A DNA stretch of 64,000 nucleotides from Mobula hypostoma (lineage: Eukaryota), in the NCBI RefSeq assembly GCF_963921235.1, contig NC_086107.1, positions 98,520,001 through 98,584,000 of the forward strand. The letters run 5' to 3'. Below are positions 5,501-63,222 of this stretch, in pieces. Numbering within the stretch: position 1 is the stretch's first letter; each line of letters starts with the position of its first letter. Made by a program: the position numbers and the translations under genes. The notes beneath the pieces are model-generated. The model made no database searches, was not told where the DNA came from, and worked only from the letters and a program-made list of their open reading frames with translations.

Positions 5501-5859
5501 GCAGCTGGGCGATAGATGCTGCCTGGCCTGCTGCGTTCACCAGCAATTTTAATGTGTGTTGCCTGATAGTTATATGGAATGGGTGTGGAGGGCTGTGGTC
5601 TAGGGGCAGGACAGTGGGACGAGGAAGAATAACAGGACTGGATGGGCAAGAGAGTCTGTTTTTGACCTGTAGTCCATACCACTCGCCCTTCACCATCGTC
5701 CTAACTGCTGAACTCCACACCATCCTATGCCCAACCAGCACTGTGACATGTTCATCAGCAGGACGGCAGAAAGTCGAGGTTGTCCCACTCCCACCCTGAG
5801 GGACAGTGGTTGCTGAGCAGTAAATGGCGAGCTTAGTAAGATTAACTTCTCATCCTCTC

Positions 5860-6240
5860 CAGCGAGGACAGCTCGGCCCGCCTCCCTGACCCCGAATCCC
5901 GCCCGCAAACCCCGTGGTCCCCGAGCTCCGCACCCAGACACGCCGCTCGGAGCCCTGCCCCACTCCAGACCCCTCGGCCCAAACAACCGCCATCGCTCTT
6001 CTCGGATCCGTGGTCCCAGGCCACGCCCACTGGCCGGAAATTGTTTCCGTCGACGTATGACGGAGGACATACGTAATTCCGCTCAAATGGCGTCGCAGAG
6101 GAGACGGGGTCTTCAGAATGTGAGGAATTCGAGTGGATGGGAAACAGGGCAAGAGGCGTCGGCATGGCAGGGCATGCCAGGGGAGAGGGGAGGATGGAGG
6201 TGGGTGGGGAGAATCTGAGGGACAACGAGAGTAGCTGTTG
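5860..6240 (+). promoter_or_regulatory. CpG-island promoter of TAB1
   Basis: Local high CpG density around exon 1. Motifs: KLF/SP CCACGCCC (6021-6028), ETS-like CCGGAAAT (6034-6041) with inverted TTTCCG (6044-6049), and YY1-like AAATGGCG overlapping the start codon. Confidence 0.75.
6087..6119 (+). CDS. TAB1: TAB1 exon 1 (coding part) [11 protein letters not shown]
   Basis: ATG at 6087, donor GTGAGG at 6120; parallels human MAAQRRSLLQS. Missed by the ORF track. Confidence 0.9.
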
Positions 6241-18200: not shown

Positions 18201-21200
18201 CAACCATGATATAACGTAATGGCAGCACAGATTTGAGGAGCTGAGTCGCTTCCTCCTCGTCCACCAGGGGACACTGGTTTGAGGTGATCGACTGAGGATA
18301 CTGTCACTCTGGCAACAAAGATTTGCATAGTGAGTTTGTATAAACTGGAATGGATATCCTGAGGTGACAGTGGATGCAGTCGCTCATTTTCTTATGGAAT
18401 AGGGGAAAGAACAACTGTTCTACATAAATATAGAACAGTACAGCACAAGAGCAAGCCCTTTAATTCACGCTGTCTGTGTCAAACGCCATGCAAATTTAAA
18501 CCGAATCTCTTCTGCCTGATCCATATCCTTCCATCCCCTATATAGTCATGTGTCTAACAGCATCTTGCTGTCACATCTGCTTCCACGTCCACCCCTGGCA
18601 GTGCGTTCCAGGCTCACTCAGTGCGTTTAAAAAAAAGCGTGCCCCACACATTTCTAGTATTGGGCATATCTAGCATGGGTAAAAGATTTTGATCATGTAC
18701 TCTATCTGTGCTGCTTAATAATTTTATTAACTTCTACCAGGTCTCCCCTTAGCTTTTCTTCACGCCAAAGAAAGCATCCCAAGTTTGTCCAGACTTGTAG
18801 CTCATACCTCTATCCAGACAGCAGCCTAGTAAACCACATCTATACTCTCCAAAGTCTACGCCTCCTTCCTGTAACAGGGGGTGGAGGAGGGAGTAGAATT
18901 ACACACACGTAGGCAGCTCTTTCGTAGAACCAGGATGAATGAGTTGAGATAGATAACCTGTTCCAGCAACATCATTGTGGCTGTTCGGAGCTAATATATC
19001 CAATTTCAACGAGTGCTCCCAGGAAATGCGGGCCACTTTTACTGATATTAACCCATCCATTGATGAATTGGGCTGTATTTGTGTGTGGTATTTTCAGCCG
19101 ATTGGCGAACAGTTCACTTGGTTTCGATCAGCTGGAGGGTGTGAGCAGATGGCTGCACACATTGAGGGCTTTGTTCTCTTTTTCTCCACAGGCCTTCGAT
19201 GTGGTAGAACGCAGCTTCTTCGAATCAATAGATGATTCTCTGGCGGAAAAGGCCAACCTGCAGTCTCAGCTTCCTGAGGTAACAACCCACACCTGTAATT
19301 AATTATCCATGTATTCTCTAACAACTTCTATACTGGTGAGTCTTACTGCAAGTCCGTGTACATCATGTTTGTGTTTGTAGTTGAACCAGCACATTATGTG
19401 GTAGGTTTCCAGTGCTTGGCATTGAGGTGCCTTCCTGGCAAGTCCAACTCTTCAATCCAATCCAATAACTTTTTTATGAGCTACTGAGAGAGACCTAGAC
19501 TGTCATTGATTTTGTCTTTTGGAAGTAAAAGTGAGATCCTGTCTGCTTTCTCAAGTGGACAGTTGAGGTGAGGAGGGGGTGGACCTTTGGCACAGATGGA
19601 GGTGATGCAGTGGAACTGTCCAGGTATCCTGGAGATATGGATTTCTCCACCAGCATAGCTGGCGAGCAGATTATCTGCTTCTTGTTAGTGAGATCTTGCT
19701 GTGTATGAAAGGCTGCTGTGTTCCTTATAGAGGATTAGGAAGTGTTTCACTAGGGCAGTAAGTGACGTCCTGAGGCTGTGAAAGGAATTATTGATGCATT
19801 TCCTCATAGGAGAAGCACTGAACGGAGGACTTCCGGTAGCGCTCATGGAGTGAAGTCGCGTTCTTGACTCGCTCCATTACCTCTGAGTTTTTTTTCTCTA
19901 TGGTCAGCTATACTTTAATTAACCATTAAGGCATCAATTCTTACAATACTTTGAATTAAACTGAATTCTCCGACAATTGGATGGAACTTAGATCTGCTAT
20001 GTCTAAGAACGGGAAAAACGGCAAGGATGGTAAACCTCCGGTTAAACCGAAAGCTACGGATTTCCCCCCGACTGAATCACCGGTGACTTTGAAAGCGATA
20101 TCGGAGTTAATTCAGAGGGAAATTTCAACCTCTGTTAGGGAGATGATTCGTACGGAAATTGCAGGCTCTGTTAAAGACCTGATTCATACGGAAATCTCAA
20201 CTAATTTCCAGAAAATTGCCGATTCAATTGATAAGATGCAAACATGTATTGCGGAACATCAGTCGGCTATATCTGATCTTCAAAAATTCGTGCAACAAAG
20301 TGAGCTTAGGATGGGGAAAATCGAAGAAACAATTAATGTAATGAAGAAGAAACTTGACTTTTTGACTTTTAAAAACTCTGACTTGGAATCTAGAATGCGA
20401 CGGCAGAATTTACGAATGATCGGGGTGAGGGAAGCTGTGGAATCCAACAACCCCATGAAATATTTTTCTCAACTTTTAAAAGATGCATTCCCTACTGTAT
20501 TTCCTGACCAACCACCGCTTCTGGATCGTGTTCACAGAATCCCATCATACTCGTCTAGGTCAGATAGACCTAGGCATGTTATTTTACGTTTTCATTATTT
20601 TCAAGACAAGGAGAGACTGTTTCGATTCGCTCGATCTAAAGGTTTCATTGATTTTTCGGATCTTAAGTTCCGATTCGTGGAAGATTTCAGTAAACCAATC
20701 TGGGACCAACGGGTTCGTTACAGATCCGTGATGTCGGAATTCTATAAGATGGATTTAAGACCAGCGCTGCTGTACCCTGCACGTCTAAGGATTCGCATGT
20801 CAGATGGAGCCCTTCGTGTTTTTGATTCTCCATCGGATGCCCAGAGTTATCTGGATCAACTTTCATCTTCAACATCTTAATTGCCTTTTTTTAATTATCT
20901 CCGTTGATCGGAGGCTGTGAATTGGTTGGTTTTAACTTTTTCGTGCCCTATCTGGGCAGAAAAGTTTACTTTTGATTTCTTAATATGGTTGCTAAACTTT
21001 CTTTTTAACTGCGTCATTTCTTTCTTTTCCCAGGGGATTCTGGGTGGTTACTTCCCTTTTGTCATCTTACGTATTTCCTGTGTGGCCTTAAATTTTGTAG
21101 TTTTTTTAAATTTTATTCTGTTTTGCTTTTTATAACCACTTTATGTCAATAATCTTATTTTTTCTTGTTGCTGTGTCTATTCATGGGTTTGAGGTTTATT

Positions 21201-24200
21201 GTGGTTTTTTTTTAATATATATTTTCCGGCTTTTGTTCTGTTCTGTGTGTATTTTAATTGAGCTACCTTTTTTTTTACTTTTTTACTGTTTTACAATTAG
21301 CTGATCCTTTTCATATTTATACCTTTTTTTTTAGGGAGCGTATACCGGAAGTCATGGGGGTAGTTTTAGCGCTTGCTTCTTTCTGGCGGGTCTGCTTTAG
21401 ATTTTGCCTTGGGGTCTTGGGGTGGGGGGTGGTGGGAGGGGCTTCACGTTTTAGTTTGTTTCTCTTTGGGCTATATACATTATTGAAGTACTGGTTGCGT
21501 CCTTTTTCCCGTATCTTTTGTATGTTCTGTTTCCTCTCCGGGTTTGTGGGTCGCGCCTATCGTCAATCCTCCTTGTTGTGGGTTGACTTTAGGATTTATG
21601 GAGTCTATTATTAATTTTGTCTCCTGGAATACTAATGGTCTTAATCATCCTATTAAAAGGAAAAAAGTTTTTAAAGTGTTCCCGAGACTTAAAGCACAAA
21701 TTTTATTTTTACAAGAGACCCATGTACGGAGGGGGGACAGACTACGTTTTTTCAAATTCTGGAAGGGACAACAATTTCATTCGAACTCCAATGCTAAGAT
21801 TCGAGGCGTCTCTATTTTTATAGATTCCTCAGTTACTTTTATACAACAGGATATTATCTCTGATCCGAATGGTAGATTTTTATTGGTTAGTGGTTTACTA
21901 TTTAATAAAAAAGTAGTTTTGGTTAATGTTTATGCTCCTAATATGGATTGTCCGGAATTTTATAAATCATTGTTTGATCAGTTTCCGAATTTGAACGAGT
22001 TTTCATTGATCTGGGGCGGAGATCTTAATACCTGTTTGTCTCCAGCTTTGGACCGTTCGGCTCCTTTACGGACTTTACCTAATAAATCTGCAAATCTGAT
22101 TAATTTTTTCCTTTCTGATTCTGGGTCGACGGACATTTGGCGTTTTCTGCATCCTCAGGAAAAAGATTTTTCCTTCTTTTCACATGTTCATCATTCCTAT
22201 TCAAGAATTGATTATTTTTTCATTGATTCTCGTCTTATTCCTTCAGTGATTAAATGTGATTATGATTCTATAACCATTTCGGATCATGCTCCACTTAAGC
22301 TTTCTATTAAAATTATGGCCAATATACCAAATAATAGACAATGGCGTTTTAATTCGCTGTTGCTTCAGGACTCGGACTTTGTTAATTTTATGAATGAACA
22401 GATTGAGCTTTTTTTTACAATTAACCATACAGAAGATATTTCGGTTAACACTCTTTGGGACACTTTTAAAGCCTATATTTGGGGTCAGATTATTTCGTAT
22501 TCTGTTGCTTTGAGGAAGAAACAGAAGCAGGAGGAGATGGCAATTGTGGACAAGATTAAAGAAATTGATAAGAAATATGTTATGGCTCCTTCTGAGGAGT
22601 TATACAAACAAAGAACTGAACTTCAAATGGAACACAGTTTACTACTCTCGTCCTCGATTGTAAACCAATTAAAGAAAACAAGAAGTGACTTTTATGTTCA
22701 CAGTGACAAAATTGGCAAGCTGCTGGCTAATCAATTGAAATCTAATTATGTTAAATCTCAAATCAATCAGATTTATAACCAAAATGATCGATTGATACTG
22801 GATCATGTGGGGATTAATCAAACCTTTTGTGATTTTTATTCTTCTTTATATCAGTCAGAGTCTCCTCGAGATTCTAAATATATGAATGATTTTTTAGATA
22901 AGTTAGACTTCCCTCAGATTTCAAAGGATATGTCTTCTTTATTAGATACTTCCATTACAATGGATGAGATTAAGAATGTTATTTTTTCTATGAATCTGGG
23001 GAAAGCTCCTGGCCCTGATGGGTTTACCGTTGAATTTTATAAATGTTTTGCTTCTTTATTGATTCCTTGGCTCGGTAGGGTTTTTGAGGCTTCTTTGAAA
23101 CTTGGTAAACTTCCTGAATCTTTTAATAGAGCATCAATTTCTCTAATACTAAAGATGGATAAAGACCCTGCTCAATGTGCATCTTATAGACCAATATCTT
23201 TATTAAATGTTGATTCTAAAGTTTTTTTCTAAGTTATTAGCAAATAGACTAGAAAAAGTACTTCCTTCTATTATTTCGGAAGACCAAACGGGTTTTATTA
23301 AAGGTCGTTACTCTTTTTATAATATTCGTACATTGTTAAATATCGTTTATACTCCCTCACAAAATGTTCCTGAGTGTGTTATTTCTTTAGATGCCGAGAA
23401 AGCTTTTGATAGAGTAGAATGGCCTTATTTATTTAAGGTGCTTGAACTGTTCAATTTTAGCTTGAAATTTATATCCTGGATTAAACTGTTATATCACTCC
23501 CCTGTAGCCTCGGTTCGTACTAACTCTTTAAACTCACCTTTTTTTCCTCTCTTTCGTGGTACTCGACAAGGCTGTCCTCTTAGTCCCCTATTATTTGATA
23601 TTGCATTAGAACCTCTTGCAATTGCTATTCGAGAATCTTCAAATATTACTGGGATAACTCGGGGATTAAAGTCCCATAAATTATCACTCTATGCTGATGA
23701 TTTACTTTTATATATTTCTAATCCTGAGAGATCCATTCCTGCTGTTTTAGAGTTATTAGCACAATTTGGTCTTTTCTCAGGTTATAAATTAAATCTTAGT
23801 AAGAGTGAACTTTTTCCGATTAATAAACATCTTCCCTTATATTATAAATTTCCATTTAAATTGATTAATAATTACTTTTCATATCTTGGGATTAAAATTA
23901 CTTGTAAATACAAAGATTTATTTAAGACTAACTTTTTACCATTAATAGACCATATTACTCAACTTTCATCTAAATGGTTTCCCTTATATTTAACTTTGAT
24001 TGGTTGTATTAATGCGGTTAAGATGTTTTTTTTTGCCAAAATTTTTATATGTGTTTCAGGCATTACCAATTTTCGTTCCAAAATCTTTTTTTGATAAAGT
24101 TGACTCAATATTTTCTTCATTTATTTGGCAGAATAAGAATCCGAGACTGGGTAAAATACATTTACAGAAAGCTAAGAGAGATGGAGGTTTAGCATTACCT

Positions 24201-27200
24201 AACTTTAGATTCTATTATTGGGCTATTAATATTCGACATATGAAATTTTGGTTACTTGACCAGGACATACTATCTATTCCTAAATGGGTAGCATTGGAAT
24301 TACAATCTGTTCAGGGTTATACATTTGGTTCTATTTTAGGCTCCTCTCTCCCTTTTGATTCGAAACGTCTTAAGCAGGTCTCTAACCCGATAGTTAAATA
24401 TGCTTTGCGCATTTGGTTTCAATTCAGAAAATTTTTTGATCTTAATCAATTCGGGTTAGCGATTCCTATTTTAGGTAACATATTTTTTCCTCCCTCTTTT
24501 ACGGATCGCGCTTTTCAAACTTGGAAGACTAAGGGTATTTTACGGTTTTTGGATTTATTTTTAGATGGTTCCCTTATGTCTTTTGAACAATTATCTAATA
24601 AATATAACTTATCAAGAATACATTTTTTTAGATATTTACAAGTTAGAAATTTCCTAAGTACTATACTTTCTTCCTTTCCAATGCTTCCTCCTACATATAT
24701 TTTAGATTCGATAATTAACCTTAATCCATGTCAGAAAGGTGCATCGGCTATGATTTATAATATTATTATGAAACTTAGGAAAGCTCCATTTGATAAGATT
24801 AGGGTAGATTGGGAACAGGAATTGGGGCTTACCATTTCTGTGGATGATTGGGGGCAGATTTTACAATTAGTTAATACTTCCTCTATTTGTGCTAAACATT
24901 CCCTAATTCAATTTAAAGTGGTTCATAGAGCACATATGTCCAAAGATAAGTTAGCACGTTTTTACTCGCATATTAATCCTTTCTGTGATAGATGTTCGGG
25001 GCAGATAGCCTCTTTAACTCATATGTTTTGGTCTTGCCCTACTTTGGAAACTTTTTGGAGAGATATTTTCAATATTATTTCTAAGGTATTAAATATAGAT
25101 ATCTCTCCTCACCCTATTACTGCTATCTTTGGACTACCTAAAATTTCTAGTAATCTTTCCCCTTCAGCCCGTAGAATGATTGCATTTCTTACTTTAATGG
25201 CGAAAAGATGTATTTTACAACATTGGAAAGAGCTTAATGCTCCAACTACCTTTTTTTGGTTTTCTCAGACGATTTTATGTTTGAATTTGGAGAAAATTAG
25301 AAGTAACCTTTATGATTCTTCATTTAAATTTGAACAGATTTGGGGACCTTTTATTCGATATTTTCATTTAATGTAATATTTACCCTTCTTGTTTTTTTTC
25401 ACTGTTTTTAATGGAGGTCGGGATTGAGGACGTGATTTTAAGTTTAACTCTGTTTGGTTTCAAGTTAGCCCATTGCTTTGCCTTGCTTTTAGTTAGCCGC
25501 ACGGTGGGTTTTTTTTTGGGGGGTTTTTTTTTTCTTTTTTTTCCATTGATATATATAAAATTTAGTATACTATTATGTTATCTTGGTTTCTTATGTTTAA
25601 ATTACATTGTTTGTAGTATTTTCTTTTTGGTATTGATATCTTTTGGAATTTTATTATACTTTAACATTGTATTAATGTTTATATGGCTTACCTTTTTTGT
25701 ATACTTACTCAATAAAAAGATTTAAAAAGAAAAGAAAAGGAGAAGCACTGAACAAAATGGGCTGAGTTGACTCACTGCTTGACAGAAATAGCAGCCCTTG
25801 GGTATAGATTTCCCTTGTGTCGAATCAAGTGTAGGCTTTCACGGCGGGAGGGATCAGACTAATTTGCCTGTGTGCTTAGAGCATTTCTTTGTGTGGACTG
25901 GGGACTGCTGAAAGATCTGTGTGACTGAAAGAGAGAGAGAAAAAACTGTGAGAGAGTTTGCTACAGAGCTTTTCCCATGGAATTACATGCATTTTTCATT
26001 ATTTTCCTGCACTAACACCAACTGTCCAGATGACCAGGTGAGACCACCAAGACATTCCCATCCTCCAAACTTCTGTCCTTCTGTCTTCTTGCTTCATCTA
26101 CAGTCAGGCATTTAATAAAAAAGGGTGTATGGGGTGTCAGGGAGGGGTAGCACCTCTGGTGGGGGAACATGTCGCGTCCTTTTCAGGGTGGTTAGTCCAC
26201 CTTCGGTCCCCACCTGGCACTCAGCTCTCACCTGTGGCTCCCCGTAGCTGTTTGCATGCGACAGCGGCCACACCCCGGGCAACGGCTTCGACAAGCCGGC
26301 TAAACCAGGTGAGGGTAGCCGACGGGTCTCAAACCCTCAGTGAGATAGGGAGTTGTCTATCCCAGCATGTGAAGACAGACTCCGGGGGATTGAGCGGACG
26401 AGACCGATGGAAGGTCCAACGGTCAAGAAGGCGGTCTCTGCAAGCGTTGTGGAACATGTAGAGCACGACAAGACACAGAAGACGTCCTGGTCATCCACTG
26501 CGCCTAGTCCCATCTCCAGCCGTCTGGACTCTGTCTTGCCACTGGACCCAGATGGGAATTGAGAAGAGAAAGTGAGGCTGACGCTGCGCAACTCTCCCTC
26601 ACTTAAATCCAAATCAAGCGCTAGTCTTCACACCATCATTATGGTGTTGAGGTCCTCTTCGACGTCAACGATGGACGAACCAAAAAAAAAGGTTATCTCT
26701 AGCAAGGAATATATTTGGTTCACTCATGCCCCATATGAGCCACCACTTACAAACTCACTTTAGTACATTCAGAATATATTTGTATCCCTTTCTCGCTAAT
26801 GCAATTATATAGATTTTCCCTAAATGCACCGAATCCATATGCCTTGAGACCTACATTAAAGGCTGGATAATCTTGAGTTGTTTTTCTCTGGGATGGTGGA
26901 GGCAGATGAGAGATCTGATAGTTTTATAAGATTGAGAGGCGTAGGTAGAATAGACGGGGAGTATCTGTTTCCCAAGGTTGAATTGTCTCAAACCAGCGGG
27001 CGTGCATTGAAGGTGAGAGGAGGTAAGTTCAGGGGGAATGTGAGGTAAGTTTTTTACTCAGTCATGGATGCCTGGAATGTGCTGCCTGGTCTGATGGTAG
27101 AGGCAAATATATTAGAGGTTTTTAAGAGACATTTGAATAGACGCATAGATGTGAGGAAGATGGAGAGATATGGACATTGTGTAGGTGGAAAGGATTAGTG

Positions 27201-30200
27201 CTTGGGTGCTTTTTAATCTTTTTAGCTGGTTCAGCACAACATTGTGGGCCAAATGGCCTGCTCCTGTGCTGTACTTCTTTCTGATTTACATATGTAGAGT
27301 AACAGAGATTCTTTTAAATCTTGCATTTATTAGCTACTGCCGTATTTTGTTCCCACAGATTTTGGTTCATCACAAGTGAAACGCTCTTGTGATCCCGAAC
27401 ATCTTTATTGTCCCCTCTCAGCTTTCTTGTAGGAAAGAAAAGCAATAGTGTGATGCTGCCGGGTTATAGGCTGGTGTGGTGAGGGTGAGGATCTCATTTG
27501 TCACTCCCCTACTGATGTTAAGTTATTCAGCAGAGTCTTTGACATTTCCAAACTAATAATTCTAGATAGTGATGCTATATTTGGGACTTGACAATTAATG
27601 TGCTTAGTTCTAATAAAATTGTTTGCATTTCTGGCGACATTTTGACAACAGGCCCATTAGGTTTAACCAGTCTGTGTTAGTGATTGTGGAAGCACATCTA
27701 CACCTATCACTGGACATCCATCCATATTCACCCCTTCTCTTCTGTGCCTTGGTGATCCAAGTGCTCGTCTAGATGCTTGAATGTGGTCAGTGGCTCTCCC
27801 TGGCAATACAATCCAGGTACACACCCTGCCTTGGGTGGAACAAGGTTCCCCCTCAGATTCTCTCTGAACCTCTTCCCCCTCATCTGTGTTCTGCAGTTTT
27901 ATTTGCCTCTTATAAGGGGATAAGGATTCCTGCAGCTGGTCAAACCTGCTCTGCTACCATCAACTCCCCTTCATCCTGCTTCAGCAAAATGCTGGCTGTG
28001 TCGCAAACCTTCAACTCAATCCTCTCCCTGTTGCCTCACTCCTTCGACATTGCCCCTTTTTTTTTTCGTAATTTATTTTTTTATTGAATTTCATCATCAA
28101 ACAAACATTTCGATAAGATGTATTTCAGATACTGTACATTATATTATAGGCATCCGTTAGTCTCATGAGACCATGGATTTGTGCCTTGGAAGGTTTCCAG
28201 GGTGCAGGCCTGGGCAAGGTTGTATGGAAGACCGGCAGTTGCCCATGCTGCAAGTCTCCCCTCTCCACGCCACCGATGTTGTCCAAGGGAAGGGCATTAG
28301 GACCCATACAGCTTGGCACCGGTGTCGTCGCAGAGCAACGTGTGATTAAGTGCTTTGCTCAAGGACACAACACGCTGCCTCAGCCAAGGCTCAAACTAGT
28401 GACCTTCAAATCACTAGACGAACGCCTTAACCACTTGGCCACGTGCCAACACATTACTGTACATATATTTCATATAATCATATTTGTCACAAATCTCCAC
28501 ATAATATTTATCTGAGGTATACACTTATAGAAAGGAGAGGAAAGAAAGAACAACTGAAAGAAGAAAACTATACCATTGCTCCTTCTAATCTGTGTTTTGT
28601 GCTTGTCTCGCAGGGTATTCCTCACTCCCAGCTTCCACAACAGTACCAGAAGCTCCTGGAAAAACTCAATAAAATCGAGCAGGAGATTTCAGGAGGAACG
28701 ACTGCCATTGTTGCACTTATTCTCAACAGCAAACTCTACATCGCCAACATAGGTACTTCGCTGTGCTGTAGAATGGCTGTTGTACAGGCCCTCAGATACC
28801 TGCCTGTTGGTCCAACATCCTATCGGTTTATTCTAGTTTTAAACACAATCTCACTTTCCTGGAGTAATGATAAGGCAGCAGACAAGCATTGTCGTCTTTA
28901 GCCTGCAGATGTGGTCTTGACTAAAATGGGGTTTCAGCCAGGCTTGTTTGGCATCTCTAGATGAACCTGTGTTGAGCTTCAAGTATTTGTTTTGGCTTTG
29001 AGTACAACTGACATTTGTTGATGCTGCATTATGTTCACTAAGCCATTCTCCCCTGCCTTCCTCAAACACCAATGCACCCCTAGTGATGAGTTCTGCCCTG
29101 CTTCTCTCCATTGAGCTTGTTCCTTCTTTCCTCTAACCTCTTCTCCACCCATCTGCCAAACTGACTCAGATCTAGCCATAAGCGAAGCGAGGTTCAACAT
29201 TTTAACTGGGCTCTTGTTCCTGTTGGCAGGCACTAGCCGAGCCTTGCTGTGCAAATCCACTGCAGATGGACAGCTCCAGGTGACTCAAGTCAGCGTTGAT
29301 CACACGACAGACAACGAGGACGAGCTCTTCCGGCTGTCACAGCTCGGTGAGTGACCTTGACACAGAAGACGTTTCCAATCATGGCATCTGGAGAATGTCC
29401 AGATCTCAGATCTGTGCCACAAACAAGAGAAAATCTGCAGATGCTGGAGTTCCTCCAGCATCTTGTGTGTATTTCTCTAATTAATGCACTGGTTTGAAAT
29501 GGAGAGCTAGAGGTATGGGCACTCCCCAGACCTAACTCAGAGTCTCCTTTGTATCCCTAAATTTAGTTCCTGCAATAATTTAATGGCGGAATTCTTCTGA
29601 ATATGCAGTGTCTGGAACCCTCACACCTCTCCATTCTCTTTGCATTCTATTGAATCCAGGCTTGTTAAAGCCATGGTTGGAAACAAAACTGGCTGTATGC
29701 AGGCTTCCTGCACTGCTAGTTTTCCCCATATGAAGTTTCACAGCTCGCAGCTGTGTTACTGACTTTCCTGTCTGAACGCTGTGTAACCGTTAACAGTTTA
29801 ATGACTCTGAGAGGGAGGGGGAGATCTGACAACATCAGTCACTTAATATGGAAAGGGCAAGGAGGGGGTGGTGAAATTCACTGATCACACCCTCCAGATA
29901 TAACTTGCGAGGGTCGGAGTGGGGCAGATCTGATTGTGGTTGTTGTTTTAAAAAAACAGAATCCAATGCCAAATGTCGTGGTAGGTTTAAACTCTTCTGT
30001 GTACATCAGAAGATGTCAATGAAGGAATGAATTTCTTCTGTTAAGGAATGTTACCTCAGTGGAGCCTTTCTATCCTAACCATCCATAATGAAATCGACTT
30101 CTTTAGAGTTGCACACTCATTCACTGGGCCATGATACGTGTTAGTGTAAAGAAAAGGAAAGGTACATCACATCCAGAGTTTCTCCGGTTAGTAGACGATT

Positions 30201-33200
30201 TCCCTCCACGCCTCTCTGACGTAGTGCGAATTCGCATACGAGGCAAGTTACAGCAGTGGTTTGCCATTGCCTTCTGCTGGGTGAGTTTCCAAAGAGATCA
30301 CCTGCTCGTTAGCTGGCACGGATGGAAAGCGCGCAGGGGAGCTGGCTGGATTCGAACCCGGGACCTTTCGTCCTGAAGTCCGATGCTGAAGCCACTACGC
30401 CACCAGCCGGGTCCGACACTAAAGAAGCAATTCTAATTACCAGAAATGAAGCTCTTATCGCCAGTATCTTATCCCAAGACAGGTTTGGGCAGGTACAGAA
30501 TAGAGTCACAGACACTACAGCACATAACAGGCCCTTCAGCCCATCTAGTCCATGCTGGTTATTCTGCCTAGTCTCATTGACCTGCATCTGGACCAGAGCC
30601 CTTCATTCCCCTGCCATCCATGTATTTCCCCTTTTCTCCTGTTACCAGTAGGAGGTACAGAAGCCTGAAGCCACACACTCAGCAATTCGGGACCAGCTTC
30701 TTCCCCTCTGCCATCCGATTCCTAAATGGACATTGAACCCTTGGATACTACCTCACTTTTGTAAAATATATAGTATTTCTGTTTTTTGCATGATTTTTAA
30801 TCTATTCAATATACGTATACCGAATAAGATTTACTTTATTATTATTATTTTTTCTTGTATATCATGTATTGTATTGAACTGCTGCTAAGTTAACAAATTT
30901 CTGATTCTCTTAAACATTGAAGTCGAAGCCACATCCATTTCTGCTGCCATGAGAAAACTTGAGTAGGCATGAAATTCATATCCTGTGCACTTAGCAAACT
31001 TAAACAGCGTAGTCAGCAAAACGGTACCCTGACCTGCTAAAACATAAAGCTTCAAATGAACAACTTAAATCAGGTACCCATTAATTCACAAGCATCTACA
31101 AGCAGGGGAAAAAGCCTTTAAATGTTAATTGCTTTTAAATGCAAATTTGTCTTCCATTATACATCAATATTTAAAACAGGGGTCAGTTTTCTCAAGTCAG
31201 ATGCAGATGAATGCTCAATCATTTATCCTGCTGCTGGTTGGCATGTGGCCCCCATCTCGGTGCCAGGCACTCCCAGTCAGTGCGTGGACCCCGCTCCAGT
31301 GCCGGACACTCACGTTTAATTTTTCATGCTGTCTCTAGGTCTGGATGCTGCAAAAATTAAGCAATGTGGGTTGATTGGAGGCCAGGACAGCAGCCGCAGG
31401 ATTGGAGATTATCGCATGAAGTACTGCTACAGTGATGTGGAAATGCTGAGGTAAGGATGACATGTTCCACCAGCTGCGTAACGTCCCTTTGCACCTGCAT
31501 GCTTGCTTTCGTTGACCTGCACACAAGGATATCCCAGTCTTGGTGCACATCCCCCCACTTTCCCTAATCGCTTACCGTTCGTGTTATCATCTGCATTCCT
31601 GTTATTGCCGCCACAGTGGATAAGCTCCAGCCTTTGCACATTACTTTATTGTCGCCAGACAATTTATACTAGAGCGTACAATCATCACAGCGATATTTGA
31701 TTCTGCGCTTCCCGCTCCCTGGAGTACAAATTAAGAATAAATAGTAAAAATTTAAATTATAAATCATAAATAGAAAATAGAAAAGGGAAAGTAAGGTAGT
31801 GCAAAAAAAAACGGAGAGGCAGGTCCTGATATTTGGAGGGTATGGCCCAGATCCAGGTCAGGATCTGTTCAGCAGTCTTATCACAGTTGGAAAGAAGCTG
31901 TTCCCAAATCTGGCCGTATGAGTCTTCAAGCTCCTGAGCCTTCTCCCGGAGGGAAGAGGGACAAAAAGTGTGTTGGCTGGGTGGGTCGTGTCCTTGATTA
32001 TCCTGGCAGCACTGCTCCGACAGCGTTCGGTGTAAAGTGAGCCCAAGGACGGAAGATTGGTTTGTGCGATGTGCTGGGCTGTGTTCACAATCTTCTGCAG
32101 CTTCTTCTAGTCTTGGACAGGACAACTTCTATACCAGGTTGTGATGCACCCTAGAAGAATGCTTTCTACGGTGCATCTATAAAAATTAGTGAAGGTTTTA
32201 GGGGACAGGCCAAATTTCTTTAGTTTTCTCATGAAGTAAAGGCGCTGGTGGGCTTCTTGGCAGTGGACTCTGCTTGGTTGGACCAAATCAGGTCATTTGT
32301 GATATTGACCCCGAGGAACTTAAAGCTTTTGACCTATTCCACTTGCACCCCACCGATGTAAATGGGGTCGTGCAATCTGCTACTCCTTCTGAAGTCAACA
32401 ACCAATTCCTTCATCTTGCTGACGTTGAGGGATAGGTTATTGTCTTCGCACCATGCCACCAGGTTCTTAATTTTCTCTCTGTACTCAAACTCATCATTAC
32501 CGGAGATACAGCCTACAATTATGCAAGATTCGAACAGAAGAGGAGCGTCTTGCTCCCTCCGGATGGCATCAAGATTCATCGTCACCGAGGAGGACGTTAG
32601 AAGGGCCTTCCTGAAGATAAATCCAAGGAAGGCGACGGGCCCAGATGGCTTCCCAGGACGGGCTCTCCGGTCCTGTGCAAGCGAGCTAGCTGGAGTGTTT
32701 GCTGACATCTTCAACTGCTCCTTGCTTCAATTTAAGATCCCCCCCGTGTTTTAAGAAGGCAACAATAATCCCAGTGCCAAAGAAGAGCAAGGTGACATGC
32801 CTGAATGACTATCGACCTGTGGCTCTGACATCAATTGCTATGAAGTGCTTCGAGCGATTGGTTATGGCACACATCAACCACAGCCTACCGGTCAACCTCA
32901 ACACTTTGCAATTCGCCTACCGGAGCAACAGGTCAACGGCAGATGCCATCTCTCTGGCCGTACATTCCTCCTTAGAACACCTGGAGAATAAAAACACATA
33001 TGTAAGGCCCTTTTTCATTGACTACAGCTCTGCCTTTAATACCATCATTCCAAATAAACTGATTCCTAAGCTCCAGAACCTGGGCCTTAGCACTCAGATC
33101 TGCAGCTGGATCTTCAACTTCCTCACAGACAGGACCCAGGCTGTAAAAATAGGGGGCAAGCTCTCCTCTACAATCACTCTGAGCAGAAGGCTGTGTACTC

Positions 33201-36200
33201 AGCCCCCTGCTGCACTCACTGTACACCCATGATTGTGTCGCCAAGTTTCCATCAAACTCAACATATAAGTTTGCTGATGACATTATATTGTCGTAGCCAT
33301 GCACTTATTCACCCAGACAACCTGCCTGAATCGCACTGCAGCCTCTGTGTGTGTCATCCTCACAGCTCACATACCCGCCCCATTTTGTGTTGTCCATAAA
33401 TCATTAATAAATACACACAAACAGAGGATTACGTTCCTTGGATCTCGATTATCCAGGATATATAGCCACAATATTTGCATCCATCAAAAAAATAAGTTAG
33501 AGTGATTTGTTTAATTAATTGATCTGGATGACAAATTGATAATTGCATAATTGATATACAAGACAAGCTTTTCACTGTATCTTGGTGCATGTGACAATAA
33601 TAAACCAATGCCAATAGAAAATAACCTTTTAAGTTATTCATTTACTTATCCCCACCCATGTCAATTCAATTGAGGTGACTTGGTTCCATACCTCAAATTT
33701 TTGGGACTGTTCCTTTGAATTCTGTTGGGGTGAATTTCTGATGCCTGAACGGATGTAAAGCTCGGGTTGCCTGTATATCTGTGTGAATAGTACCCACTGG
33801 TCACAGCTTGCCACTCAGGAAACGGGTGTAGGATTTGCAAATAAAATGATGCAAGGTGTTTTATGTTGAAGAAAAACCGAAACAACTCCTTTATTGTAAT
33901 CCAGAAACTGGTATCTGAACTTCACGTAATTACGTCATAAGTCAGACCAGCCTCTGAAAGTGGAACCCCAACTCAATGTCAGTGGTTGTAAATTATGTAC
34001 ATTTCCACCAATTACATTACCCTACAGGGCACCTTTATTTGTTTCGCGTCTGCTAACACATACTCTATATACACCGATACTGCTCTCAGTTACATGTGAT
34101 TTAATTTAGCCCCGAGTAAGAGTGGTAACATCTAAGGGGAGAATAAAAATGAGTTTAAATCAAGATGTAACTGGGTGGTTGATGGCCAGCACAGACTTAG
34201 TGGGCCAACGAACCTGTTTCTCTGCTATACCTCTCTAACTCTGACCCGACCGTGACCCCTGGTGTCCAGGCACTGACCCGATGGTGACCCCTGGTGTCCG
34301 GGTGCTGACCCGGCTGTGACCCCTGGTGTCCAGGCACTGACCCGGCCGTGACCTCTGGTGTTGATCTGCCTGTTTGTGTCTTTTTTCCTACGGGGAGGAG
34401 GGATTTGGGGGTTAATGTGCTTGTTCCATTTCTTTGTGGGGAGGGTGTATTTGAGGGATTGCTGATCGTACTGCCTTTCTTTTCTTTCTTGGTTACATGG
34501 CTACCCAGAGAAGAAAAATTTCAGAGTTATATAATTTGATGATAAATGAGCTTTGGACCTTTGAAACTTTGTCCGGGGCACTGACCCAGTTGTGGCCTGT
34601 GCTGACCAGAGCACTGACCCAGCTGTCTGCTTGCATTTGCCTCATGCTGGCATTGATGATATACCTTGACAATAATTGGATTTTTCACCTTGGTTAGTCC
34701 TGCCAAGACGAAGCCGGTGATCGCAGAGCCAGAAATCCACGGAGGTCAGTCACTGGATGGGGTGACAGGGTTTTTGGTGCTGATGACCGATGGACTGTAC
34801 AAAGCCCTGGAGGCAGCTCATGGTCCTGGACAGGCCAATCAGGTGAGGCGTGCTCTCTCTCAGAGCACCGTGTGCTTCAGCTGCCCTGGGTACTGAGGTG
34901 CTGATGTAGTCCAAGCCCTGAGTCTGAGGAGTTTGAGTGGAAGTCATGGGTGCTGCTGGCTGGGACACTATGGGTGCCCTTGACCTGGGGTGTATGGGCT
35001 GGGCCCAGCATCTCTCCAATGAGTGCCGTTGGGCTGGGTTGTGTTTGGGGTTCGGGTTGGTATGCGCTATGGGTCTGAATGTATGCTGCAGATCGGTCTG
35101 CTCTGGCGTGTGTGCACTTTGTAGAAGTGGGGGCTCCATGCATGGTTTCCATCTGTATTGGGTTGAGCTTCAAGCTAGCAACTTGGCCTCAAAAAATAAC
35201 AGAGAAAAATGCTAAAAGAAACGGTAAGGCTGCCCCACAATGCGCTACAAGGTGTGGAAAGGAACAACAAGTAGAAGGAGTGGGTGTGTGTTTGGTCCAG
35301 TGCATGGTGCAGTGTGAAAGTTCGAGTGTTGCAGCTGAGTACGTGTTCAGTAGGCTGTGCTCTGGAGTGGCTGCAGTGTGTGATCAGGGTCAGTGGATGC
35401 GTGTCTGGTTCAGTAAGTGCGCTGTGTGAGGGAGCCAGTGTTGGGGTTTGCTACTTGTTCAGAGAAGTGTGCTCTGGGGTGGTATAGTTTTGAGGGAGAA
35501 CAGCTGGAGTGTGCTCTGAACTGAGGTACGAGCTTAGCGGTGGCTGTTGGACTGTGTTCCCGAGCGTTGCCAGAACCCGTTCAGACTCCGGGGGAGAGCG
35601 CGGGTTCTGCTTGTCACTGCCTGACTCCCATCACCTCCCCTTGCAGGAAATCGCTGCCATGGTGGCTACGGAGTTTGCACTGCAGACGAGGCTGGATGCT
35701 GTGGCCCAGGCAGTGGTTGACCGCGTCCGAAGGATACATCGCGACACCTTCATCAGTGGAGGCGAAAGGTCAAAGTTTTGTGACAGACACGAGGACATGA
35801 CCCTCCTCATTCGAAACTTCAACTACCCTCTGGGGGAGATGAGCCAAACGTCCACAAGCCCGACCCAAGGTAAATGAGACCACCATGTGTTGTTTGGGTA
35901 TTGTCTGCATCGTCACAGCCGATCACTGAGCCAACTCCTGGCATTTGGCCCGGCTGAGTTCTTGGTGCTTGTGGTTTAGCTCTGTTGCTTTGGACATCAG
36001 GTGAAGTTGAAGGACTGGCACTTTGACCGTTGTAGTGTAGCTTCGATGATGTCACGTGTGGCCAAACTTTGCCTGTTTCTTACACTGTTGGTTGCATGGC
36101 CTCAACCAGCACAGAAACCAAAGGGTTAACTGTTGCGGCAGATGGCACACTAACCACACAAGTTCTGAAGGAAGGATGACATCTAAAAGCAAAAGCACCT

Positions 36201-62125: not shown

Positions 62126-63013
62126 TCCATTCCATTCGTCCCCCCCATCCCTCCCCACTGATCTCCCTCCTGGCACTTACCCGTGTAAGCGGAACAAGTG
62201 CTACACATGCCCTTACACTTCCTCCCTTACCACCATTCAGGGCCCCAGACAGTCCTTCCAGGTGAGGCGACACTTCACCTGTGAGTCGGCTGGGGTGATA
62301 TACTGCGTCCGGTGCTCCTGATGTGGCCTTCTATATATTGGCGAGACCCGACGCAGACTGGGAGACTGCTTTGCTGAACACCTACGCTCTGTCCACCAGA
62401 GAAAGCAGGATCTCCCAGTGGCCACACATTTTAATTCCACATCCCATTCCCATTCTGACATGTCCTCTACTGTAAAGATGAAGCCACACTCAGGTTGGAG
62501 GAACAACACTTTATATTCCGTCTGGGTAGCCTCCAACCTGATGGCATGAACATTGACTTCTCTAACTTCCGCTAATGCCCCACCTCCCCCTCGTACCCCA
62601 TCCGTTATTTATTTTTATGCACACATTCTTTCTCTCACTCTCCTTTTTCTCTCTCTGTCCCTCTGAATATACCCCTTGCCCATCCTCTGGTTCCCCCCCC
62701 CCACCTCCTTGTCTTTCTTCCCGGACCTCCTGTCCCATGATCCTCTCGTATCCCCTTTTGCCAATCACCTGTCCAGCTCTTGGCTCCATCCCTCCCCCTC
62801 CTGTCTTCTCCTATCATTTTGGATCTCCTCCTCCCCCTCCCACTTTCAAATCTCTTACTAACTCTTCCTTCAGTTAGTCCTGACGAAGGGTCTCGGCCTG
62901 AAACGTCGACTGTACCTCTTCCTAGAAATGCTGCCTGGCCTGCTGCGTTCACCAGCAACTTTGATGTGTGTTGCTTGAATTTCCAGCATCTGCAGAGTTC
63001 CTGTTGTTTGTGT
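62126..63013 (+). mobile_element. Young 5'-truncated Penelope-like (Neptune-type) insertion: GIY-YIG end plus terminal repeat
   Basis: PGTYPCKRNKCYTC...GVIYCVRCS*CGLLYIGETRRRLGDCFAEHLRS; 8-bp TSD aacagttg (62118-25 / 63014-21). Confidence 0.88.
62875..62912 (+). ncRNA. Minimal type I hammerhead ribozyme of the Penelope terminal repeat
   Basis: Stem I TAGTC/GACTG, core CTGACGA, stem II GGG-tctcgg-CCT, GAAA, palindromic ACGT stem III, GTC cleavage triplet (after 62907). Confidence 0.8.
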
Positions 63014-63222
63014 AACAGTTGACACAGTGTGTTAGATTTTCAGAAAGTTTTCAATAAGATGTCACAAGGGGATGGTTAGCAAATTTAGATCACTTGTGGA
63101 GACCTGGATTGGCAATTGGTTGTGGACAGAAAACAGAGTAGGAATAAACAGATGCTGCTCAGGCCGTGGGATCGTCACTGGTGGGATACTACAGTGGTCA
63201 GCGCTGGGGCCCCAGTTACTCT

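What the first reader, a model, noticed from the sequence alone, without database searches (positions are those of the whole stretch)
26131..26315. Complete HDV-like ribozyme in sense orientation inside TAB1 intron 4
Seen in sequence: every element of the HDV fold is present in the correct order. These are P1 (7 bp), a long J1/2, P2 (10 bp with one G-U), P3 (3 bp), L3 UCCCCGU (HDV has UCCUCGC), the P1 3' strand followed by GGGCAAC as in HDV, a perfect 6-bp P4, and J4/2 GCUAA placing the catalytic C at 26300. Established: HDV-like ribozymes head R2, RTE and other non-LTR retrotransposons, and the mammalian CPEB3 intron carries one. Inference: because it lies on the TAB1 coding strand, it could cut TAB1 pre-mRNA before G26131. 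That would release the retroposon RNA and compete with exon 4-5 splicing, a CPEB3-like situation in a signalling gene.
Basis: partly seen in the sequence, partly recalled or inferred. Interest (0 to 1): 0.9.

Follow-up and report, generated by a model that had tools for sequence, protein, structure and literature searches.

The report
Ribozyme-like head of a retroposon
The stretch is the front end of a short jumping element present in thousands of copies, and it probably folds into a hepatitis-delta-type self-cutting RNA that trims the element's own start, rather than being a special regulator of the TAB1 gene.

Summary
The fold is not canonical. Twenty-two bases holding a conserved hairpin separate L3 from the P3/P1 3' strands. 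The cleavage-site pair is G-C, not G.U. No Rfam model reaches threshold; the best is HDV-F-prausnitzii at 13.2 bits against 44.

The stretch is the head of a ~559-bp non-LTR retroposon copy (26122-26680, +). At least 1737 young copies exist, plus older and foreign relatives sharing the same ~195-nt head. Any cut would therefore fall at element nt 1 (26122), not 26131.

Across four families the catalytic-type positions are invariant and the positions that R2 studies report as variable (J1/4, P4) vary. P4 and the large J1/2 domain covary. P1, P2 and P3 never vary.

Best reading (0.6): an HDV-like ribozyme variant that sets the retroposon's 5' end. A CPEB3-like role in TAB1 is unsupported. Activity is untested.

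The parts
26122..26680 (+). One copy of a ~559-bp non-autonomous non-LTR retroposon (SINE-like). The window copy has A at 26122 where 21 of 30 aligned copies have the element's first G.
   Evidence: All 40 scored matches (the window itself among them) are 97-100% identical. Of the 29 other loci, 25 span 26119-26126 to 26679-26683. Target-site duplications of about 9-13 bp and (AAC)n/(AACC)n tails are visible.
26122..26128 (+). Proposed P1 5' strand, element nt 1-7 (family GGGGTGT; AGGGTGT here). The predicted cut is 5' of this position.
   Evidence: Complementary to 26270-26276. It coincides with the family's 5' end.
26131..26137 (+). In the consensus fold it is the base of the J1/2 (P1.2) helix.
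   Evidence: alignment columns 11-21 paired with 102-111.
26132..26222 (+). Structured J1/2 peripheral domain (P1.2). Basal helix 26132-41 / 26213-22, then GGGG 26144-47 / CCCC 26208-11, then a variable apical part.
   Evidence: Recovered by RNAfold and RNAalifold. Ten pairs have changes on both sides. The apical part is only 70-77% conserved between families.
26180..26183 (+). TTTT run inside the element, in the young family.
   Evidence: and invariant in all 30 copies. A T4 run is a pol III terminator (general knowledge), which argues against pol III transcription of the whole element.
26225..26234 (+). P2 5' strand.
   Evidence: Ten bp with 26306-26315 including one G.U. One wobble change among families.
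26236..26238 (+). P3 5' strand, GGC.
   Evidence: Pairs with GCC 26267-69. Invariant in the 7 sequences.
26239..26246 (+). L3 5' part, UCCCCGUA. U26239 and G26244 occupy the places of the U20/G25 pair. C26240 and C26241 would pair with G26278 and G26277 (P1.1).
   Evidence: U, C, C and G are invariant across four families, while positions 26242-43 vary (CC, AA, AC).
26247..26265 (+). Inserted hairpin 'P3.1' (GCUGU / ACAGC, 9-nt loop), followed by G26266.
   Evidence: The stem is kept with 4-5 bp and different loops in the older family and in loci L081, L085, L090. Only wobble changes occur. No such insertion was found in print.
26267..26269 (+). P3 3' strand, GCC, directly abutting the P1 3' strand.
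26270..26276 (+). P1 3' strand, ACACCCC.
   Evidence: Invariant in 30 of 30 young copies apart from one C>T in L007. No variant at a share of 10% or more is listed there in four runs (table truncated).
26277..26282 (+). GG of P1.1 (26277-78) and the variable J1.1/4 (26279-82).
   Evidence: GG is kept in the family majority states. J1.1/4 reads GCAA, UACA, CAAA or UAAA in four families.
26283..26298 (+). P4 hairpin, 6 bp with loop CGAC.
   Evidence: Pair 26284-26297 is G-C in the young family and C-G in the others. Pair 26287-26294 is U-A, U.G or C-G.
26299..26305 (+). J4/2, GCUAAAC, with the candidate catalytic C at 26300.
   Evidence: The only common variant listed is A26302>G, which keeps a purine there. 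Part of its conservation in the fetched loci comes from how they were found.
26306..26315 (+). P2 3' strand.
26681..26689 (+). A-run after ...GGACGAAC-C: the tail and/or an A-rich target duplication of this copy.
   Evidence: Other copies carry (AAC)n or (AACC)n at this place.
28605..28781 (+). Part of a TAB1 coding exon (PP2C-like domain). Exon borders were not mapped.
   Evidence: human TAB1 residues 135-195, E 3.6e-16. (PP2C, E 5.6e-07).

Best explanation
The stretch 26131-26315 is the core of the ~195-nt head of a SINE-like non-LTR retroposon copy (26122-26680, + strand) that landed in a TAB1 intron.

The head is a conserved, structured RNA module. It is most likely an HDV-like self-cleaving ribozyme of unusual build, with these parts:
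- P1: element nt 1-7 (26122-28) with 26270-76.
- A large folded J1/2 (P1.2) domain, 26132-26222, whose basal helix uses the second GGGGUGU.
- P2: 26225-34 / 26306-15.
- P3: GGC / GCC.
- An L3 that keeps U, CC and G but carries an extra hairpin (26247-65).
- P1.1: G26277-78 with C26241-40.
- P4: 26283-98.
- J4/2 with C26300 as the general acid.

Inferred mechanism: the element has no promoter of its own and is read through from host pol II transcripts. The ribozyme cuts exactly at the element's first nucleotide and frees an RNA with a defined 5' end, which a LINE's reverse transcriptase then copies.

Shown here: the repeat nature of the stretch, its sharp 5' end, the conservation pattern, and covariation in P4 and J1/2. 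Inferred: catalysis, the P1 choice, and read-through transcription.

For this copy the cut, if any, would fall next to 26122/26123. It would be an incidental by-product in TAB1 pre-mRNA.
For: (1) All HDV-type elements can be drawn in the right order. My descriptor hits only here in the window's two strands, against 1-6 hits per 20 Mb of random sequence.

(2) The 5' end of the family coincides with a P1 5' strand. In one search, 21 of 30 aligned copies start GGGGTGTAT. In some searches, about 144 of 200 listed copies (of 1737 exact hits) carry the full 9-mer, about 46-48 are 1-7 nt shorter, and 8-10 show none (my tally by eye). The older family and loci L081, L085, L090 start the same way.

(3) The head is the conserved part. 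Identity between young and older family majority states is 97% at 26122-51 and 90-93% at 26212-71, and falls to 13-40% at the 3' end (25 against 22 copies).

(4) The conservation pattern fits a catalytic core. U, CC and G of L3, the GG, P3, P1 3' and GCUAAAC are constant. L3 positions 4-5, J1.1/4 and the loops vary.

(5) RNA-level constraint is visible. RNAalifold recovers P1.2, P2, P3, the inserted hairpin and P4 without guidance. On 7 sequences, 96.5% of cells pair, against 37-48% when the partner is slid. Eleven pairs have changes on both sides, against 5.4 +/- 1.4 in shuffles (0 of 500). P4 pair 26284-97 switches between G-C and C-G.

(6) Of 4227 Rfam families, the only ribozyme hit on the narrowed stretch is an HDV family, aligned on GGCAAC-P4-CGGCUAA.

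(7) There is precedent in print:
- HDV-like ribozymes at 5' ends of R2, R4, Dong, Baggins and L1Tc, with P1 to P1' spacing of 23 to over 700 nt.
- P1 mismatches at the top of the stem in a quarter of R2 elements.
- A model in which a duplicated P1 strand moves the cut upstream (PMC3774820; passages and sections 15-16 read).
- A J1/2 helix (P1.2) that activates large HDV-like ribozymes (PMC4908430; abstract and passages).
- A ribozyme shared by non-autonomous NARTc (PMC3383444; abstract start in the listing).

(8) A TTTT run, no tRNA and no small-RNA hit argue against a pol III head.
Against: - No Rfam model reaches its threshold.
- L3 carries a 22-nt insertion for which I found no precedent (2 papers, neither on an HDV P3.1).
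- The cleavage-site pair is G-C. For HDV itself a G1:U37 wobble is described as a specific requirement, with A1:C37 the best substitute (PMC1874588, introduction passage).
- P1, P2, P3, P1.1 and the inserted hairpin show no change on both sides, so the pseudoknot itself is unproven. Ten of the 11 covarying pairs lie in the peripheral domain, whose structure was derived from the same alignment.
- On the larger, decayed alignment A2 covariation is weak: 4 pairs against 5.2 in shuffles.
- A subfamily (8 of 30; roughly 12% of the 200) has GGGGTAT. That gives an uncompensated A.C in P1 pair 6.
- A nested alternative exists in which GUGGCU pairs with GGCCAC.
- The older and metagenome loci were found with patterns lying in P4-J4/2-P2, so conservation there is partly by ascertainment.
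- There are no RNA data.
Confidence: 0.6

Rival explanations
1. The ribozyme uses the second GGGGUGU (26131-37) as P1, cuts TAB1 pre-mRNA 5' of G26131, and thereby competes with splicing in a CPEB3-like way.
For: In this copy the second GGGGTGT gives an intact 7-bp P1, whereas the first lacks its G. Both copies are identical in the family, so either can pair with ACACCCC. By my eye tally, 8-10 of 200 sampled copies show no upstream 9-mer and could start at or near nt 10. The element lies in sense orientation upstream of a TAB1 exon.
Against: About 144 of 200 copies carry the 9 nt upstream of 26131, as do the older family and the metagenome relatives. RNA cut at 26131 could not pass those 9 nt on. 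In all consensus folds the second GGGGUGU is the base of the J1/2 helix. The copy is one of at least 1737 and is young (97% identical to its nearest relatives), not a conserved feature of TAB1. There is no RNA evidence.
Confidence: 0.1
2. The head is a conserved structured RNA or DNA module without catalysis. It could be an internal pol II promoter together with a 5' structure that the partner LINE's proteins recognise or that stabilises the RNA. The HDV likeness would then be partial and coincidental, or a dead relic.
For: The core helices are invariant, so the pseudoknot is unproven. L3 is interrupted and the wobble pair is absent. No Rfam model reaches threshold. The element is G+C- and CpG-rich (57% G+C, 30 CpG against 31 GpC), as 5' promoters of LINEs can be. 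A fully nested alternative fold exists.
Against: A 7-nt complement of the strand that precedes GG lies exactly at element nt 1. The unpaired positions that stay constant are the ones an HDV core needs, and the variable ones are those known to vary (PMC3774820 section 16). Covariation shows selection on RNA pairing, not only on DNA.
Confidence: 0.25
3. An ordinary pol III SINE whose head derives from a tRNA, 5S, 7SL or snRNA gene. The sharp 5' end would be the pol III start.
For: The 5' end is sharp, the size and copy number are SINE-like, and TAGCACCTCTGG and GGTTAGTCC loosely resemble A and B boxes (my reading).
Against: No tRNA was found by ARAGORN. No small-RNA family hit at E<=10. The B-box-like stretch is not kept in the older or metagenome families. 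A TTTT run lies at 26180-83 in all 30 young copies.
Confidence: 0.04
4. Chance resemblance inside a G+C-rich repeat.
For: The descriptor was relaxed after seeing the sequence. It would still give hundreds to thousands of chance hits in a 3.5-Gb genome at 1-6 per 20 Mb. The MFE is not exceptional (z -0.72).
Against: The real match far exceeds the descriptor's minima (10-bp P2, 6-bp P4). It sits at the exact 5' end of a retroposon. It is conserved with covariation across four families.
Confidence: 0.02

Closest known systems
[quoted passage not shown]
   Same: The position at the element's first nucleotide. P1 pairs the 5' end with the strand just after P3. J1/2 is long. P4 and J1/4 are variable. 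A catalytic C sits in J4/2, and U, CC and G are conserved in L3. The role is to free the element RNA from a co-transcript (PMC3774820, PMC3185411; passages read).
   Different: L3 is interrupted by a 19-nt hairpin. The cut-site pair is G-C instead of a wobble. No Rfam model reaches threshold. The carrier is a high-copy, dispersed, non-autonomous element of a vertebrate-sized genome. Activity is untested.
Non-autonomous carriers of such ribozymes: NARTc of Trypanosoma cruzi and R2-derived SIDEs
   Same: A short element without an ORF keeps the ribozyme head of a LINE lineage (PMC3383444 and PMC3414825; abstract starts seen in the listing).
   Different: Those share their head with a known autonomous partner. 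No partner LINE was found here.
Large HDV-like ribozymes with a P1.2 helix in J1/2 (drz-Agam-2 type)
   Same: A helix that starts 3 nt after P1 and ends 1-2 nt before P2 would bring P1 and P2 together, as described for P1.2 (PMC4908430; abstract and passages).
   Different: The domain here is about 90 nt with several helices. Its effect on rate is unknown.
CPEB3 intronic ribozyme
   Same: An HDV-type motif in sense orientation inside an intron.
   Different: By recalled knowledge and by PMC13635239's introduction, CPEB3 is a single conserved locus in mammals. This is a young transposon copy among thousands, with no sign of conservation at the TAB1 locus.
Rfam RF02682, the HDV ribozyme of F. 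prausnitzii
   Same: The 3' half aligns: GGCAAC, a short P4, then CGGCUAA.
   Different: The score is 13.2 bits against a gathering score of 44. The 5' half (P1 to P3) does not align.

Membership tests
HDV-like self-cleaving ribozyme | Nested double pseudoknot in the order P1, J1/2, P2, P3, L3, P3', P1', P1.1, P4, J4/2, P2' | tested here: met
   It can be drawn with 26122-28, 26225-34, 26236-38, 26267-69, 26270-76, 26277-78, 26283-98, 26299-305 and 26306-15. The pseudoknot pairs themselves have no covariation support.
HDV-like self-cleaving ribozyme | P1 of about 6-7 bp whose first base is the first base of the released RNA | tested here: met
   The family's nt 1-7, GGGGTGT, pair with ACACCCC. 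The 5' end is shared by 21 of 30 copies and about 144 of 200. The window copy has only 6 bp, with A at 26122.
HDV-like self-cleaving ribozyme | Wobble pair (G.U, or A.C) at the cleavage site | tested here: not met
   The family has G opposite C26276. The requirement is stated for HDV in PMC1874588 (introduction). Whether all HDV-like ribozymes keep it was not checked. In the window copy A26122 faces C26276, but that A is probably flank.
HDV-like self-cleaving ribozyme | 3-bp P3 closed by a short L3 (7-8 nt by recalled knowledge) and abutting P1' | tested here: not met
   P3 GGC/GCC abuts P1', but L3 is 28 nt with an internal hairpin. No precedent was found.
HDV-like self-cleaving ribozyme | L3 with U...G (reverse wobble) and two C that pair with GG after P1' (P1.1) | tested here: met
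   U26239, C26240, C26241, G26244, G26277 and G26278 are constant in four families. The role of G25 is described in PMC13635239 and PMC3774820 (passages).
HDV-like self-cleaving ribozyme | Catalytic C in J4/2 followed by N-purine-A (form recalled) | tested here: met
   C26300-U-A-A. The common variant A26302>G keeps a purine.
HDV-like self-cleaving ribozyme | Match to a curated covariance model | tested here: not met
   No hit at gathering. The best is RF02682 at 13.2 bits against 44. No HDV-family hit among the 11 matches at E<=5 on relatives.
HDV-like self-cleaving ribozyme | Covariation in the core helices | tested here: inconclusive
   One pair in P4 changes on both sides, and P2, P4 and P3.1 show wobble changes. 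P1, P2, P3 and P1.1 show none.
HDV-like self-cleaving ribozyme | Mg2+-dependent self-scission giving 5'-OH and 2',3'-cyclic phosphate ends | not testable with these tools
   No raw RNA reads were on offer; only contigs.
Non-autonomous non-LTR retroposon (SINE-like) | Dispersed copies with target-site duplications, a 3' simple-repeat tail, no ORF and 5' truncations | tested here: met
Pol III SINE | Head derived from tRNA, 5S, 7SL or snRNA with an internal promoter, and no T4 run | tested here: not met
CPEB3-type conserved intronic ribozyme | A single locus conserved with its host gene | tested here: not met
   At least 1737 copies. The copy is 97% identical to its nearest relatives.

The most novel reading that the evidence does not exclude
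A whole lineage of high-copy SINE-like elements uses an HDV-like ribozyme as its 'head' in place of a promoter. The lineage has at least 1737 young and over 1000 older copies here, and relatives in other assemblies and in runs from 14 coded organisms. The ribozyme would be a new structural variant, with a hairpin inserted in L3, a Watson-Crick pair at the cut site, and a duplicated P1 strand absorbed into a P1.2 domain. Thousands of sense-oriented intronic copies, the one in TAB1 among them, would then be self-cutting sites in host pre-mRNAs.
Probability: 0.5. Interest if true: 0.7.

Novelty: new variant of a known kind. Interest (0 to 1): 0.5.

Why it matters
If the head cleaves, three things follow.
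- The HDV fold tolerates a helix in L3 and a Watson-Crick pair at the scissile site.
- It adds an abundant vertebrate-type retroposon lineage that depends on read-through transcription plus self-cleavage rather than on a pol III promoter.
- It implies many self-cutting sites inside host introns.

It also gives a concrete example of the duplicated-P1 route for moving a cleavage site that was proposed for R2.

If the head does not cleave, it is an ordinary conserved 5' module of a repeat. In either case it says nothing special about TAB1.

Tried and rejected
1. Parent LINE.
- Four copies diverge at 26595-26617 (L002, L020, L021, L022). I extended them and found mosaics of other repeats, not a LINE with this head.
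- Two loose-end patterns led to an older SINE-like family of about 520 bp, not a LINE.
- A pattern asking for a different base after P2 gave mostly mutated copies.
- The neighbouring L1 at 19888-25739 shares nothing with the element.

2. RNA evidence.
- No RNA holder is listed.
- All four laid runs are contigs and show no starts or ends (table 6: none).

3. Rfam.
- Searched on the whole window, on 701 nt, on 205 nt, on 101 nt and on five relatives.
- Only the sub-threshold RF02682 hit emerged.

4. A canonical short L3 directly upstream of ACACCCC.
- The bases there (GACAGCG between TGC and GCC) give neither a P3 nor the CC needed for P1.1. Rejected by inspection.

5. P3 as GCU/AGC (26237-39 / 26246-48).
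- Rejected, because it leaves 21 nt between P3 and P1'.

6. Upstream TAB1 exons.
- No PP2C hit in 136 + strand ORFs of 35 aa or more before 19900.
- Three ORFs inside the 6.2-9.0 kb tandem repeat were left out.

7. Earlier scan notes.
- Nothing for this sequence or genome.

8. Literature.
- No paper holds the four typed motifs.
- No paper found describes an HDV-like ribozyme in this kind of vertebrate SINE.
- These searches cover only the held open-access library.
- PMC145785 (Perrotta and Been 1996) is not held.

9. Composite copies.
- L049, L053, L057 and L067/68 carry a shared 260-nt A+T-rich unit fused at element nt ~4.
- Their origin was not resolved.
Full report
**What is at the coordinates.**
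- GGGGTGT at 26131-37 is complementary to ACACCCC at 26270-76.
- CTCTCACCTG (26225-34) pairs with CAGGTGAGGG (26306-15) over 10 bp with one G.U.
- TCCCCGT lies at 26239-45 and GGGCAAC at 26277-83.
- CGGCTT/AAGCCG forms a perfect 6-bp hairpin with loop CGAC.
- GCTAA places a C at 26300.

- The only 3-bp P3 that abuts the P1 3' strand is GGC 26236-38 with GCC 26267-69. That leaves 22 extra bases (26245-66) inside L3, folding as hairpin GCUGU/ACAGC.
- The pair at the would-be cut site is G-C.
- Two extra bases follow GCUAA before P2.

**It is a repeat.** The stretch lies in a ~559-bp interspersed element, 26122-26680 on the + strand.
- A 401-nt query gave 3274 first-look candidates in the window's own 3.48-Gb genome. 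All 40 scored matches (the window itself among them) were 97-100% identical.
- Of the 29 other loci, 25 match from 26119-26126 to 26679-26683. The other 4 stop at 26595-26617.
- Flanks differ from copy to copy.
- Target-site duplications of about 9-13 bp are visible.
- The 3' end is ...GATGGACGAAC followed by (AAC)n or (AACC)n.
- There is no ORF.

This is a non-autonomous non-LTR retroposon. The exact 23-mer at 26131-53 occurs 1737 times.

**The 5' end.** In 21 of 30 aligned copies the element starts G-GGGTGTAT-GGGGTGT. There are thus two tandem GGGGTGT, 9 nt apart, and the window copy lacks the first G (A at 26122).

I tallied by eye the 200 copies listed.
- About 144 carry the full upstream 9-mer (at most 1 mismatch).
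- About 46-48 are shortened by 1-7 nt or are ambiguous.
- Between 8 and 10 show no trace of it.

The template RNA therefore begins at nt 1 (26122), not at 26131. RNA cut at 26131 could not pass on the 9 nt. The first GGGGTGT pairs with ACACCCC as well as the second does. The second is the base of a long hairpin (26132-41 with 26213-22), both in the single-sequence fold and in the RNAalifold consensus.

For R2, a duplicated P1 strand at the 5' junction has been proposed to move the cleavage site upstream and to lengthen J1/2 (PMC3774820, Figure 8 legend and text; passages read). The arrangement here fits that model.

**Revised anatomy.**
- P1: 26122-28 / 26270-76.
- A 3-nt linker.
- P1.2 domain: 26132-26222.
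- P2: 26225-34 / 26306-15.
- P3: 26236-38 / 26267-69.
- L3: U26239, C40, C41, two variable bases, G44, U45, A46, then hairpin 26247-65, then G66.
- P1.1: G26277-78 with C26241-40.
- J1.1/4: 26279-82.
- P4: 26283-98.
- J4/2: 26299-305 with C26300.

A helix in J1/2 placed close to P1 and P2 is known to activate large HDV-like ribozymes (PMC4908430; abstract and passages). P1 to P1' distances of 23 to over 700 nt occur in R2 (PMC3774820).

**Chance.** I wrote a descriptor after seeing the sequence, so it is post hoc. It requires:
- a 7-bp P1 within 150 nt upstream of P2;
- a P2 of at least 6 bp;
- a 3-bp Watson-Crick P3 abutting P1';
- an L3 of 6-30 nt starting YCCNNG;
- GG after P1';
- a P4 of at least 4 bp;
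- C-N-R-A in J4/2.

It hits only this place on both strands of the window. It hits 1 and 6 times per 20 Mb of first-order random sequence of window and element composition. With L3 limited to 6-9 nt it hits 0 and 1 times. The motif alone would thus occur by chance hundreds of times in a genome of this size. What makes this case stand out is its position at a retroposon's first base and its conservation.

**Rfam.**
- No family reaches its gathering score anywhere in the window.
- Nothing HDV-like appears at E<=10 in 25900-26600.
- On 26118-26322 and on 26220-26320 the only ribozyme hit is RF02682 (HDV ribozyme of F. prausnitzii), at 13.2 bits against 44 and E 3.4 and 1.7. It aligns on GGCAAC, P4 and CGGCUAA.
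- No HDV-family hit among the 11 matches at E<=5 on five relatives.

**Relatives.** Contigs of four coded runs from four coded organisms cover the element with the same borders, 26123 and 26680. Their loose ends revealed variant families.

In the window's genome an older family of about 520 bp shares the head. Its copies are 66-79% identical to the query copies in most pairs, and its 29-mer gives 1072 matches at up to 3 mismatches.

An 18-mer scan of metagenome contigs gave 13 loci. Four of them (L081, L085, L089, L090) are further relatives, and nine are unrelated.

All start GGGGTGTATGGGGTGT next to unrelated flanks.

Identity between the majority states of 25 young and 22 older copies:

| Region | Identity |
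|---|---|
| 26122-51 | 97% |
| 26152-211 | 70-77% |
| 26212-71 | 90-93% |
| 26272-331 | 80-83% |
| 3' end | 13-40% |

The head is therefore the shared module, and the tails differ.

**Pattern of change.**
- Constant in all four families: nt 1-16, P2 (one C>U wobble), P3, U-C-C and G of L3, ACACCCC, GG and GCUAAAC.
- Variable: L3 positions 4-5 (CC, AA, AC), J1.1/4 (GCAA, UACA, CAAA, UAAA), the loop and length of the inserted hairpin, and the apical J1/2, including a 12-nt insertion in L085.
- Compensated: P4 pair 26284-97 (G-C against C-G); P4 pair 26287-94 (U-A, U.G, C-G); the P1.2 base (CAGG/CCUG, CC(A)GG/CCGG, UCAG/CUGG).

I aligned 7 sequences: 2 young, the 2 least decayed older copies, and 3 metagenome loci. 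L054 and L066, located, were left out because of deletions.
- RNAalifold predicted 59 pairs, 10 of them with changes on both sides. It recovered P1.2, P2, P3, the inserted hairpin and P4 without guidance.
- For my full pseudoknotted structure, 96.5% of cells pair, against 37-48% when the partner is slid. Eleven pairs have changes on both sides, against 5.4 +/- 1.4 in shuffles (0 of 500).
- Ten of those 11 pairs are in P1.2, whose structure came from the same alignment. One is in P4, and none is in P1, P2, P3, P1.1 or the inserted hairpin.

On a larger alignment (8 of the 30 young copies and 17 older copies that keep the 5' part) the signal is weak: 87.9% of cells paired, and 4 pairs against 5.2 in shuffles.

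Two ascertainment caveats apply.
- The older loci L044-L063 and the metagenome loci were found with patterns inside P4-J4/2-P2, so conservation there is partly by selection.
- The variant table is not biased in that way, but it is truncated (41 rows not shown).

**Points against a working ribozyme.**
- The L3 insertion has no precedent that I could find.
- For HDV itself the G1:U37 wobble is called a specific requirement, with A1:C37 the best substitute (PMC1874588, introduction passage).
- A subfamily with GGGGTAT has an uncompensated A.C at P1 pair 6 (8 of 30; roughly 12% of the 200). About a quarter of R2 ribozymes do have 1-2 mismatches at the top of P1 (PMC3774820, section 16).
- The pseudoknot is unproven by covariation.

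**Other readings of the head.**
- A pol III head is unlikely. No tRNA was found, and no small-RNA family hit. The B-box-like stretch is not conserved. A TTTT run lies at 26180-83 in all 30 young copies.
- An internal pol II promoter, or a protein-recognition structure, cannot be excluded. The element is G+C- and CpG-rich. Promoter and ribozyme can also coexist, as in L1Tc (PMC3383444; abstract start in the listing).

**TAB1 context.** An exon matching human TAB1 residues 135-195 lies at about 28605-28781 on the + strand. The element is therefore in sense orientation, in the intron before that exon. This is an inference, since I did not find the upstream exons. Nothing singles out this copy. 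Its head differs from the family majority only at 26122, 26189 and 26204. Whether it cuts TAB1 pre-mRNA, and whether that matters for splicing, is open.

**Verdict.** The best explanation, at 0.6, is a non-canonical HDV-like ribozyme that defines the 5' end of a SINE-like retroposon, with the cut at 26122 rather than 26131. That makes it a new variant of a known kind if it is active. It is an ordinary transposon copy as far as TAB1 is concerned.

Noticed in passing
window 19888-25739 (+); inverted copy 46079-51926; partial copy 63221-64000: A full-length L1-type LINE lies about 380 bp upstream of the retroposon. It has the ORF1 RBD-like domain, an AP endonuclease, a reverse transcriptase and zf-RVT. 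A 99%-identical inverted copy lies 20 kb downstream, and a third partial copy sits at the window's end. It shares no sequence with the retroposon.
   Followed up: partly
window about 6234-9023: A long array of short tandem units (start spacing 8-15 nt, 230 overlapping 300-nt copies reported). It keeps all three + frames open for about 2.8 kb.
   Followed up: no
window 34241-34361: Three to four tandem copies of a 32-bp G+C-rich unit (CTGACCCG...GGTGTCC...).
   Followed up: no
window 11503-11592, 36568-36666, 39660-39758, 44411-44509, 45502-45600, 62874-62972, 5516-5566: Several copies of another short interspersed repeat with the core ...GATGCTGCCTG(A/G)CCTGCTGAGTT.... It is unrelated to the element studied.
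   Followed up: no
window 32690-33232 (+): A reverse-transcriptase fragment (RVT_1, E 1.9e-13) of another LINE, in the intron downstream of the TAB1 exon.
   Followed up: no
5' junctions listed; loci L004-L030: The base just before the element's first G is T in most full-length copies, and it often belongs to the target duplication. U at -1 is also the base that HDV cleaves fastest behind (PMC1874588, abstract). Whether this reflects target preference or something else was not examined.
   Followed up: no
L049 ~1110-1370, L053, L057, L067/L068 (own genome): A composite repeat. A shared ~260-nt A+T-rich unit is fused to the older family's head at element nt ~4, which destroys the first GGGGTGT but keeps the second. 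It occurs in at least four dispersed places.
   Followed up: partly
L081 7-86 (metagenome locus): A near-perfect 80-nt palindromic hairpin just upstream of the retroposon relative. It matches several microRNA-precursor models below their thresholds (best 53 bits against 90).
   Followed up: no
G000 C5, about 110-121 Mb (L002, L021; three hits): Copies of the element with identical flanks and identical truncations recur within about 10 Mb of one contig. This suggests local segmental duplications.
   Followed up: no
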